Counted from the first letter of the stretch, positions 25,460 through 26,389 are shown. The stretch: 54,484 nucleotides of DNA from Escherichia coli (GCF_003334355.1 NZ_QOWP01000027.1); one strand, 5' to 3'. Notes: generated by a model not told the origin, from the letters alone. A program made the numbers and translations.

Positions 25460-26389
25460 TCACGTTAGCAGCGAAAACGCTGAAAGCAGCGGGTCGGCGG
25501 CACATAACGACTGAATTTGCTGGCGAACCAACAGCGCATTTTCACTGGCTCGCCAGCGTTCAAACATGGCAAAGAGGGCGAAAATATCCTCCTGCCGCAG
25601 CGAAGAACCATCCAGCGTCCATAAACTGATTAACGTGCGGAGGAGATAAAAATCGCACACCAGCGGGAAATAATCCGCCCCGTCAGTCTGCCCAATCACA
25701 TCGTGGTAAACGCGGTAAATCAGCCAGTTACGCATCATCCAGGGCGCGGTGGCAAAATGCTGTTGCCAGGTGGTTTGCCACTGCGTCTGAAGCTGCTGTT
25801 GTAACAGGGCTTCGCTGTTAGCGTCATGCAGCGTCAGCAAAGGCATCTGCAACGGCAGCGAAGTTTTGCGCGGGCTTTCAGGCAAAATCGACCAGTCAAA
25901 CGTAAAACTCCCGAGTAACGTGGCCAGGTGACGCGCCAGCTGTGGCACGGGCGGCAGCTGGGCGAACTGTGCCTGTAGGATGCCTTTTTTCGCATGATCG
26001 GCCAGCGCCTGCGGCAGCGTCGTCAAACGGGCAAGAATATCTCCGTCTCTGCCCGGCATTTTACTGGCGCGGGAGAGCAGGATACCGACGGCATACAATG
26101 ACAGTTCTGGTGTTAAATCACGGAGCGTGAGGGTACTCAAAATCACCTGGTTTACTATCGCATCGCGCGCGGAAAGCTCTGCGGCATTTTCTTCCACAGG
26201 ACGGTAGGTGAGCTGTAAATCAAAGGCCCTGACATCGTTGAGCACCGCTTCGCAGCTGGCAATATCGGTCAATGACAGGCTCAGGCGAATCTCGTTTTTC
26301 CACACCTTGCGGACGTATAAAGGCGAACCGGGGTGACGCGCTAAAAATTTGCGCACGTATTCCGGTTCGTAACATTCAATAAAACTCAT
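25460..26389 (-). CDS. Hypothetical protein (309 aa) of unknown function, Flag-2 associated
   Basis: ORF with ATG at 26387-26389 (MSFIECYEPEYVRKFLARHPGS…) preceded by GGAAG RBS-like sequence; Leu/Gln-rich, no motif I can assign; same strand as lfgAMN upstream and transferase gene downstream. Confidence 0.6.
   Translation of the reverse strand: MSFIECYEPEYVRKFLARHPGSPLYVRKVWKNEIRLSLSLTDIASCEAVLNDVRAFDLQLTYRPVEENAAELSARDAIVNQVILSTLTLRDLTPELSLYAVGILLSRASKMPGRDGDILARLTTLPQALADHAKKGILQAQFAQLPPVPQLARHLATLLGSFTFDWSILPESPRKTSLPLQMPLLTLHDANSEALLQQQLQTQWQTTWQQHFATAPWMMRNWLIYRVYHDVIGQTDGADYFPLVCDFYLLRTLISLWTLDGSSLRQEDIFALFAMFERWRASENALLVRQQIQSLCAADPLLSAFSLLT

What the first reader, a model, noticed from the sequence alone, without database searches (positions are those of the whole stretch)
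25460..26389. Unknown 309-aa ORF wedged between FlgN-like chaperone and the transferase
The protein has no signal peptide or TM segment that I can see and no motif I can place; it is Leu/Gln/Trp-rich with a WQQHF…W…W segment. Its location downstream of lfgMN and upstream of the transferase makes it a candidate specificity factor, chaperone or scaffold for flagellin modification, or a novel flagellar assembly factor.
Basis: inference. Interest (0 to 1): 0.5.

Follow-up and report, generated by a model that had tools for sequence, protein, structure and literature searches.

The report
LafV: FliB-like protein without iron-sulfur site
The ORF is a real, conserved gene already known as lafV, a relative of the Salmonella flagellin lysine methylase FliB, but it has lost every cysteine that FliB needs for catalysis and always sits next to a glycosyltransferase, so it more likely assists sugar-type modification of the lateral flagellin than methylates it.

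Summary
The 309-aa ORF (window 25460-26389, minus strand) is real and under purifying selection (dN/dS 0.12-0.21). It is not unknown. It is lafV of the E. coli Flag-2 variable region VR1 and belongs to Pfam FliB_C (PF27117). NCBI often names it "lysine-N-methylase", and De Maayer et al. 2020 described it as a FliB orthologue.

That label is doubtful.
- LafV scores 40 bits against the NCBIfam FliB model, whose cut-off is 85.
- It aligns only to FliB residues ~96-376.
- It lacks an ~85-residue segment and all eight cysteines that are invariant in 56 canonical FliBs. These include the CX4CX3CC [4Fe-4S] ligands, whose mutation abolishes methylation in vitro.
- Its presumed substrate, LafA, has no lysine in its 80-residue variable linker, which is 34% Ser/Thr.
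- In all 31 distinct Flag-2 loci examined, LafV lies directly beside a homologue of the GT2 glycosyltransferase, in either gene order. Canonical FliB islands almost never carry one.

Best reading (about 0.45): LafV is a FliB-derived accessory or substrate-recognition partner of the adjacent transferase. An iron-sulfur-independent methylase remains a serious rival. No direct interaction evidence was obtained. This is a new variant of a known kind, of moderate interest.

The parts
25460..26389 (-). lafV CDS, 309 aa. It belongs to the FliB_C family (PF27117) and lacks the Fe-S segment and all 8 conserved FliB cysteines.
22837..25281 (-). Multidomain transferase (GT2-1 of De Maayer 2020), 814 aa as annotated in RefSeq; the mechanical ORF extends to 25353. 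In 838-aa ORF numbering, the GT2 domain is at residues 44-158, a region at ~280-480 also occurs as a separate gene in L027 and L029, and there is a weak TagF-like CDP-glycerol glycerophosphotransferase match at 629-752. It is the invariant neighbour of lafV.
22324..22719 (+). tagD-like glycerol-3-phosphate cytidylyltransferase. It would supply CDP-glycerol for the transferase.
   Evidence: PMC6993521
25317..25452 (.). Pair of inverted 35-nt GC-rich repeats (25317-25351 and 25418-25452) that fill the lafV-transferase spacer. It is a dispersed chromosomal repeat (REP/BoxC-like by recollection), not part of the protein machinery.
26516..26944 (-). lfgN, the FlgN-like chaperone gene, immediately upstream of lafV with a 126-bp spacer.
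26957..27235 (-). lfgM, the anti-sigma-28 factor (FlgM).
39746..40660 (+). lafA lateral flagellin, 304 aa, the presumed substrate. All 6 Lys lie in the Flagellin_N (4-138) and Flagellin_C (219-303) regions. The linker 139-218 has 0 Lys and is 34% Ser/Thr.

Best explanation
The ORF is lafV, a diverged paralogue of the flagellin lysine-N-methylase FliB. It keeps the FliB N-terminal strand and the mostly helical FliB_C body. It has lost, by an internal deletion of about 85 residues, the cysteine-rich segment that binds the [4Fe-4S] cluster. It therefore cannot work by the FliB mechanism.

I propose that it acts in the cytoplasm together with the transferase encoded next to it (GT2 plus further domains, fed with CDP-glycerol by the TagD-like enzyme). 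Its most likely role is the flagellin-recognising or scaffolding partner that presents the Ser/Thr-rich variable region of unexported LafA for O-linked modification.

Shown: homology and fold, loss of the cysteines, purifying selection, invariant adjacency to the GT2 homologue, and the lysine-free LafA linker. Inferred: that LafV binds LafA and/or the transferase, and that it is not itself a methylase.
For: (1) Homology is limited to the FliB C-terminal part. NCBIfam NF038110 scores 40 bits against a cut-off of 85, with LafV 30-280 aligned to profile 106-363 of 373. BLASTP gives 23% identity to FliB residues 96-376. Foldseek gives TM about 0.8 to full-length FliBs. Precomputed Pfam is FliB_C.

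(2) In a 148-sequence alignment, 8 Cys columns are 100% conserved in 56 long FliBs and 0 of 8 are kept in the LafV clade. W30, D35, Y106-P107-R108 and H373 are also lost. The C17/C22/C26/C27 ligands hold the [4Fe-4S] cluster, and their mutation abolishes methylation (PMC8598068).

(3) Gene pairing is consistent. All 26 Cys-less LafV loci (L001, L002, L007-L030) have the GT homologue immediately downstream. The five other distinct short-form loci (L003/L004, L005/L006, L032, L035) have a 461-503-aa GT2 immediately upstream, 42-45% identical to GT residues 39-491 where it was aligned, with a 4-bp overlap in L005. Published counts match type by type: GT2-1 222 strains versus LafV6 219; GT2-3 99 versus LafV1 112; 341 loci with a GT versus 342 with a LafV. 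In flag-1, FliB islands and glycosylation islands are mutually exclusive except in 2 strains (PMC4875605).

(4) LafA has 6 Lys, all in the Flagellin_N and Flagellin_C helices. There are none in residues 93-233, and the 80-residue linker is 34% Ser/Thr.

(5) dN/dS of 0.12-0.21 is similar to lfgA and lfgN, so the protein is functional, not a relic.

(6) A Cys-less FliB_C protein outside flagellar loci sits next to a class I SAM methyltransferase. This fits a FliB_C module that teams up with separate catalytic partners.
Against: No direct evidence of a LafV-transferase or LafV-LafA contact was obtained. An AF2 model of a linker fusion of LafV with GT residues 25-490 gave pTM 0.45, with the GT2 domain itself unmodelled, so it is uninformative.

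The distance-matrix correlation between LafV and GT is no higher than with other flagellar neighbours, and the partial r is only 0.36.

LafV keeps many invariant polar residues (R13, E33, R35, N80, Q81, R174, K175, D189, Y225, R226, Y228, H229, E277, R280). These could form an active site.

Which part of FliB binds SAM or flagellin is unknown. FliB produces SAH stoichiometrically, so the methyl-transfer site might lie in the retained part, and the cluster could be structural or regulatory.

In E. coli, lafV and the transferase are separated by 178 bp of repeat DNA and are not translationally coupled.

Without D2/D3 domains, some D1 lysines of LafA could be solvent-exposed.
Confidence: 0.45

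Rival explanations
1. LafV is what the databases call it, a flagellin lysine-N-methylase. It would use SAM in the retained FliB_C body without an iron-sulfur cluster and methylate lysines of LafA independently of the glycosyltransferase.
For: It is homologous to FliB and shares its fold. NCBI names it lysine-N-methylase, and De Maayer 2020 predicts the same. Many polar residues are invariant and selection is purifying. FliB yields SAH as in ordinary methyl transfer, so the cluster may not be the catalytic centre.
Confidence: 0.25
2. LafV is an enzyme with a different chemistry that acts on the glycan or on the glycosylated flagellin. For example, it could decorate the sugar or glycerol-phosphate chain made by the adjacent transferase.
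For: It is invariantly adjacent to the transferase, and often to tagD. Polar residues are conserved. VR1 regions commonly carry glycan-decorating enzymes (PMC6993521).
Against: No catalytic motif or known enzyme fold was found. Nothing indicates a cofactor site. The only characterised relative acts on protein lysines.
Confidence: 0.15
3. LafV is a flagellar export or assembly helper, such as a chaperone-like factor for LafA or hook-associated proteins, and is unrelated to modification.
For: It lies directly downstream of the chaperone gene lfgN on the same strand. It is predicted to be a soluble, mostly helical protein.
Against: It is absent from the roughly 40% of Flag-2 loci that lack VR1, including most Yersinia, so it is not a core assembly factor. 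It travels with the GT2 gene even where the pair lies next to lfiJ or the mot genes instead of lfgN.
Confidence: 0.08
4. LafV is a decaying remnant of fliB with no function.
For: It has lost the catalytic segment. The Escherichia clade also replaces the near-universal F-P after the YRxYHD motif by I-G. Flag-2 is often inactivated in E. coli; for example lfiH is a pseudogene in strain 1303.
Against: dN/dS is 0.12-0.21 across Escherichia, Pseudocitrobacter and Citrobacter. The gene has an intact length of 306-315 aa in many genera. 44 columns are invariant. The fold is predicted with confidence.
Confidence: 0.03

Closest known systems
FliB, the flagellin lysine-N-methylase of Salmonella enterica (NCBIfam NF038110; Wang et al. 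2021, PMC8598068)
   Same: The first ~15 residues are homologous, as is the whole FliB_C body: 23% identity over 290 aa and Foldseek TM about 0.8. Both are encoded in a flagellar locus and are presumed to act on a flagellin in the cytoplasm.
   Different: LafV is 309 aa and FliB about 400 aa. LafV lacks FliB residues ~18-103. None of the 8 invariant cysteines is present, so there is no CX4CX3CC [4Fe-4S] site. W30, D35, YPR106-108 and H373 are also lost. The score is below the family cut-off. LafV is always next to a glycosyltransferase, whereas FliB islands almost never are. The cognate flagellin has no D2/D3 domains and no lysine in its variable region.
Short LafV proteins that keep a CxCxxC motif (probably LafV1, 3, 4 and 5 of De Maayer 2020; for example P0112 from the genome CP021659.1, and P0136, P0120)
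   Same: They have the same short architecture (297-324 aa). They fall in the same clade in an NJ tree, which holds 84 short forms and has one long form as its sister. They occupy the same Flag-2 VR1 position and are adjacent to a homologous GT2.
   Different: They retain four invariant cysteines: FliB C22, C27 and C125 plus one of their own. They could therefore still bind a metal or cluster. The window's clade has lost these too, with C125 replaced by Asp or Glu. The gene order is GT2 then LafV on the lfiJ strand, instead of LafV then GT on the lfgN strand. Their GT2 partner lacks the C-terminal TagF-like part.
Flagellin-binding modules of dedicated flagellin glycosyltransferases, such as the TPR domain of Caulobacter FlmG (recalled from the literature, not checked here)
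   Same: Proposed role only: a non-catalytic, mostly helical module that recognises flagellin and delivers it to a glycosyltransferase domain.
   Different: There is no sequence or fold relationship. LafV is not a TPR protein and shows no significant PDB similarity. It is a separate polypeptide rather than a fused domain. Its binding to flagellin is untested.
YkgJ / CxxCxxCC cysteine-cluster proteins (Pfam PF03692)
   Same: Wang et al. compare the cysteine motif of FliB's N-terminal segment to this family.
   Different: That segment is exactly the part LafV lacks, so LafV has no similarity to this family.

Membership tests
FliB flagellin lysine-N-methylase (NF038110) | Score at or above the curated NCBIfam cut-off over the full-length model | tested here: not met
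   The score is 40 bits against a cut-off of 85, and only profile positions 106-363 of 373 are matched.
FliB flagellin lysine-N-methylase (NF038110) | N-terminal CX4CX3CC motif (C17, C22, C26, C27) that ligates the [4Fe-4S] cluster and is needed for methyl transfer | tested here: not met
   These four columns are 100% Cys in 56 long FliBs and 0% in the 66 sequences classed as Cys-less, where they are gaps or Ala/Ser in LafV. The requirement is shown in PMC8598068.
FliB flagellin lysine-N-methylase (NF038110) | The further four invariant cysteines (positions 79, 88, 103, 125) | tested here: not met
   None is present. Position 125 is Asp42 in LafV. LafV has 4 Cys in all (6, 46, 245, 296), none at a FliB position.
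FliB flagellin lysine-N-methylase (NF038110) | SAM-dependent methylation of flagellin lysines | not testable with these tools
   This needs biochemistry or mass spectrometry. Indirectly, LafA has only 6 Lys and none in residues 93-233.
FliB flagellin lysine-N-methylase (NF038110) | Typical genomic setting: a methylation island beside fliC without glycosyltransferases | tested here: not met
   LafV lies in Flag-2 VR1, 13 kb from lafA, and always next to a GT2 homologue. The FliB setting is described in PMC4875605.
FliB_C domain family (Pfam PF27117) | A match to the family model or fold | tested here: met
   A precomputed PF27117 hit is recorded for the identical protein P0001 and for relatives. 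Foldseek matches FliB models with TM 0.8 and E-values from 1e-12. The Pfam-A copy behind profile_search returned no match for this protein.
LafV of the Flag-2 locus (named in De Maayer 2020 as 'previously termed LafV') | A ~310-aa FliB-like protein encoded in VR1 between lfiJ and lfgN | tested here: met
   The gene order is lfiI-lfiJ-tagD / GT-lafV-lfgN-lfgM-lfgA. LafV6 averages 311 aa and occurs in 219 strains of 6 Enterobacteriaceae genera. Assigning the window's gene to type LafV6 is an inference from taxon and size.
Flagellin-glycosyltransferase adaptor (functional class, proposed) | Physical binding to flagellin and/or to the transferase | tested here: inconclusive
   The AF2 linker-fusion model gave pTM 0.45 with the GT2 domain unmodelled. 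The mirror-tree partial r is 0.36. Only gene adjacency supports this.

The most novel reading that the evidence does not exclude
FliB_C is a portable substrate-recognition module that works with interchangeable catalytic partners. In FliB the partner is the Fe-S segment in cis. In Flag-2 loci it is a GT2 glycosyltransferase in trans. In some non-flagellar loci it is a class I methyltransferase in trans. Under this reading LafV is a pseudo-methylase that has become an obligatory adaptor for O-linked, glycerol-phosphate-containing modification of the lateral flagellin, and thousands of 'lysine-N-methylase' annotations are wrong.
Probability: 0.3. Interest if true: 0.6.

Novelty: new variant of a known kind. 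Interest (0 to 1): 0.42.

Why it matters
The gene is annotated in thousands of E. coli, Citrobacter and related genomes as a lysine-N-methylase. A comparative study used it to argue that flagellin methylation is common in the secondary flagellar system.

If LafV lacks the chemistry of FliB and instead serves the neighbouring glycosyltransferase, that conclusion and those annotations need revising. FliB_C would then become an example of an enzyme scaffold recycled as a targeting subunit.

The work also gives a concrete, testable three-gene module (tagD, multidomain transferase, lafV) for how lateral flagellins of enterobacteria are decorated, and no experimental data exist on this. The practical importance is moderate, because Flag-2 is silent or defective in many E. 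coli strains.

Tried and rejected
- **Pfam-A scan of the ORF:** no hit even at E = 10. The family is only visible through the precomputed PF27117 labels.
- **Sequence search of the PDB with the family profile:** only a chance hit at E = 0.55.
- **AF2 on LafV + (GGGGS)x8 + GT residues 25-490 with a 15-row paired alignment, to test for a complex:** pTM 0.45, with GT residues about 100-250 below pLDDT 50. The result is uninformative, and the tool gives no PAE or contacts.
- **Mirror-tree test of LafV against GT:** all neighbouring genes correlate at r about 0.95 through shared ancestry. The partial r of 0.36 is too weak and the pairs are not independent.
- **Genome scan with a mixed alignment of both short classes:** It was rerun with the Cys-less class only, so CxCxxC-class contexts rest on five distinct loci plus published counts.
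- **Ren et al. 2005, the paper that named lafV:** could not be retrieved.
- **Promoter scan of 25200-27400:** no sigma-70-like site. Sigma-28 or sigma-54 promoters were not modelled.
- **Rejected: the ORF as an N-terminally truncated fliB pseudogene.** Its first ~15 residues align to the FliB N-terminus, the loss is internal, the length is conserved across genera, and selection is purifying.

Full report
**1. The observation**

The window carries an ORF on the minus strand. Its ATG is at 26389, its stop codon ends at 25460, and it encodes 309 aa. The mechanical ORF list extends it to a TTG at 26428. All relatives start at MSxIECYEP, and RefSeq annotates the 309-aa form (WP_000008069.1, 'hypothetical protein' in E. 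coli 1303), so the ATG is the start.

Leu is 16.8% and Gln 6.8%, with eight Trp and the WQTTWQQHF...W...W stretch at residues 204-222. There is no signal-like N-terminus and no segment hydrophobic enough for a membrane helix.

The neighbours are as stated. lfgM and lfgN lie upstream on the same strand. A large transferase lies downstream. A tagD-like cytidylyltransferase and lfiJ lie beyond it on the other strand. The locus is the E. coli Flag-2 (lateral flagellar) cluster. The 1.2-kb stretch is 99.9% identical to many E. coli chromosomes, and at least 80% of it is present in 1278 of 5426 complete genomes.

**2. It is a real, constrained gene**

A search of 5.8 billion proteins found 98 close relatives of 306-315 aa in Escherichia, Pseudocitrobacter, Citrobacter, Phytobacter and others. 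A 23-sequence alignment has 44 invariant columns.

Pairwise Nei-Gojobori estimates give dN/dS of 0.12-0.21 for this gene. The values are 0.07-0.14 for the transferase and 0.05-0.22 for lfgN, lfgM and lfgA in the same genome pairs, apart from one lfgM pair with no amino-acid difference. AlphaFold2 with that alignment gives a confident model (pLDDT 91.8, pTM 0.91). The model has a small N-terminal beta-sheet with two helices, followed by thirteen more helices.

**3. What it is**

The gene is not unknown. The identical protein and most relatives carry the precomputed Pfam family PF27117, named FliB_C. Many NCBI records call it 'lysine-N-methylase'.

De Maayer et al. [quoted passage not shown] They occur in the variable region VR1 between lfiJ and lfgN in 342 of 592 Flag-2 loci. 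LafV6 (average 311 aa, 219 strains, six Enterobacteriaceae genera) fits this gene.

Homology to FliB is real but partial:
- The NCBIfam FliB model scores 40 bits against a curated cut-off of 85 and covers only profile positions 106-363 of 373.
- BLASTP against a 401-aa FliB gives 23% identity over FliB residues 96-376.
- Foldseek matches full-length FliB models with TM about 0.8 normalised to LafV.

**4. What is missing**

A profile search of 1.84 billion representatives found two size classes. Proteins of ~390-437 aa match from about residue 110 onward. Proteins of ~297-324 aa match from residue 1. Reading the N-termini shows three kinds:
- long FliBs with FxCxGxxCxxxCC;
- short proteins with a residual CxCxxC;
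- short proteins with no cysteine motif, which include the window's protein.

I aligned 148 of these sequences.
- **Long FliBs (56):** eight columns are 100% cysteine, at positions 17, 22, 26, 27, 79, 88, 103 and 125. This is the same number of conserved cysteines that Wang et al. report.
- **CxCxxC class (23):** these keep C22, C27 and C125 plus one cysteine of their own.
- **LafV class:** these keep none. C125 is Asp42 in the window's protein. Other FliB-invariant residues (W30, D35, Y106-P107-R108, H373) are also gone.

The first ~15 residues of LafV (IECYEPEYVRKF) align with the FliB N-terminus. The loss is therefore an internal deletion of about 85 residues and not an N-terminal truncation.

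An NJ tree on the shared region puts all 84 genuine short forms in one clade. The 60 Cys-less proteins form a pure subclade, and one long protein (P0124) is the sister.

Wang et al. 2021 (PMC8598068) showed three things. C17, C22, C26 and C27 bind an oxygen-sensitive [4Fe-4S] cluster. The quadruple alanine mutant has no cluster. That mutant does not methylate flagellin in vitro. LafV therefore fails the best-defined criterion for a FliB-type methylase.

**5. Context**

Twenty-four loci recovered from one-genome-per-species contigs, plus the E. coli 1303 locus and a metagenomic contig, all have the LafV gene followed within 23-231 nt by a homologue of the 814-aa transferase.

The distinct loci of the other short-form clade (L003/L004, L005/L006, L032) have a GT2 gene of 461-503 aa immediately upstream of LafV on the lfiJ strand. 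Where it was aligned, this GT2 is 42-45% identical to residues 39-491 of the E. coli transferase. In one locus the two genes overlap by 4 bp. A Cys-less member of that clade (L035) lies in a GT2-LafV-tagD run, with a 4-bp overlap between LafV and tagD.

The published counts pair up type by type. GT2-1 occurs in 222 strains and LafV6 in 219. GT2-3 occurs in 99 and LafV1 in 112. Rouxiella has GT2-4 with LafV3. Erwinia has GT2-5 with LafV4 and LafV5. Overall, 341 loci carry glycosyltransferases and 342 carry LafV.

In the primary flagellar locus the picture is the reverse. The 296 strains with FliB islands carry no other glycosylation-island genes, and methylation and glycosylation islands are mutually exclusive except in two strains (PMC4875605).

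So LafV, unlike FliB, is one half of a conserved gene pair with a GT2 enzyme, and the pair survives a change of gene order and strand.

**6. The presumed substrate**

LafA (39746-40660, 304 aa) has six lysines. All lie in the Flagellin_N (4-138) or Flagellin_C (219-303) helical regions, and there are none between residues 93 and 233. The 80-residue linker, which is the part expected to be most exposed, is 34% Ser/Thr. In the model of Wang et al., FliB recognises the D2/D3 domains and methylates surface lysines. LafA has no such domains. This fits O-linked modification better than lysine methylation.

The transferase has a GT2 domain and a weak TagF-like CDP-glycerol glycerophosphotransferase match. 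The adjacent gene is a glycerol-3-phosphate cytidylyltransferase homologue. De Maayer et al. already suggested a teichoic-acid-like glycan.

**7. Interpretation**

The best-supported reading is that LafV is a FliB derivative that has lost the FliB chemistry and works with the transferase next to it. Most plausibly it is the flagellin-recognising or scaffolding partner.

One further hint comes from a Cys-less FliB_C protein outside any flagellar locus (P0109). It sits next to a class I SAM methyltransferase. This looks as if FliB_C were a module that pairs with separate catalytic proteins.

This reading is inferred and not shown. My attempt to model a LafV-transferase complex was uninformative (pTM 0.45). 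A mirror-tree test was weak.

The main rival is an iron-sulfur-independent methylase. It is kept alive by three points: the many invariant polar residues in LafV; the stoichiometric SAH production of FliB; and the fact that nobody knows where FliB binds SAM or flagellin.

A decaying relic is excluded by the selection data. A core assembly factor is unlikely, because the gene is absent from Flag-2 loci without VR1.

**8. Novelty and verdict**

The gene, its name and its family are known, so the finding as written ('unknown ORF') is ordinary. Three points are not in the papers I could read: the complete loss of the FliB cysteines, the strict pairing with a GT2 in contrast to FliB, and the lysine-free LafA linker. 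Together they question a widespread annotation.

I rate it a new variant of a known kind, with interest of about 0.4.

Noticed in passing
window 25282-25459 (repeat arms 25317-25351 and 25418-25452): The spacer between lafV and the transferase gene is filled by two inverted copies of a 35-nt GC-rich repeat (TGTGCGCGCTGATGCCCTCACCCCAACCCTCTCCC). It probably accounts for the partial matches of the 1.2-kb query at a median of 5 places per genome in 5073 of 5426 E. coli genomes. It looks like a BoxC/REP-type dispersed element; that name is from recollection.
   Followed up: partly
window 22837-25353 (-) and 22324-22719 (+): The transferase looks like a three-part enzyme. It has a GT2 domain at residues 44-158. 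A region at ~280-480 exists as a separate gene in L027 and L029 and resembles GT25 enzymes by eye. There is a weak TagF-like glycerophosphotransferase match at 629-752. With the TagD-like cytidylyltransferase next door, this points to a glycerol-phosphate-containing flagellin glycan.
   Followed up: partly
L036 7001-8598 and L037 2521-4118: A 300-aa Cys-less FliB_C protein (P0109) lies outside any flagellar locus, between an OprD-type porin gene and the der/bamB/hisS genes. It is immediately followed by a 214-aa class I SAM methyltransferase (Methyltransf_23/12, weakly like the pseudaminic-acid-associated methylase).
   Followed up: partly
L031 8001-9218: The long protein closest to the LafV clade (P0124, 405 aa, motif CX4CXCXCC) is not in a flagellar locus. 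It lies between an EpmB-like radical SAM gene plus efp on one side and an unannotated 548-aa gene followed by groES on the other.
   Followed up: no
L021 versus L022: A contig labelled Chryseobacterium sp. 18061 carries an enterobacterial Flag-2 locus with the same layout as one from Citrobacter sp. 18056. The two record titles are similarly formatted, suggesting the same project. Its LafV N-terminus differs at only 3 of the 25 printed residues. This is probably contamination or mislabelling of the assembly.
   Followed up: no
window 19844-20554 versus L001 3556-4255: lfiH (FliH-like) is annotated as a frameshifted pseudogene with an internal stop in E. coli 1303. The window has an uninterrupted 236-aa ORF at the corresponding place, so the Flag-2 copy in the window may be more intact than in that strain.
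   Followed up: no
window 26478-26496 (minus strand, between lfgN and lafV): A perfect 7-bp hairpin (GCGGAAA-CGGAT-TTTCCGC on the coding strand) lies just after the lfgN stop. A T-rich tract follows only about 20 nt later, and the terminator scan did not flag it. It might attenuate read-through from lfgN into lafV.
   Followed up: no
window residues 232-233 of LafV (about 25691-25696): The Escherichia/Pseudocitrobacter clade has Ile-Gly, plus a 4-residue deletion, where about 95% of short forms and 80-90% of FliBs have Phe-Pro after the YRxYHD motif. This is a further local divergence of unknown meaning.
   Followed up: no
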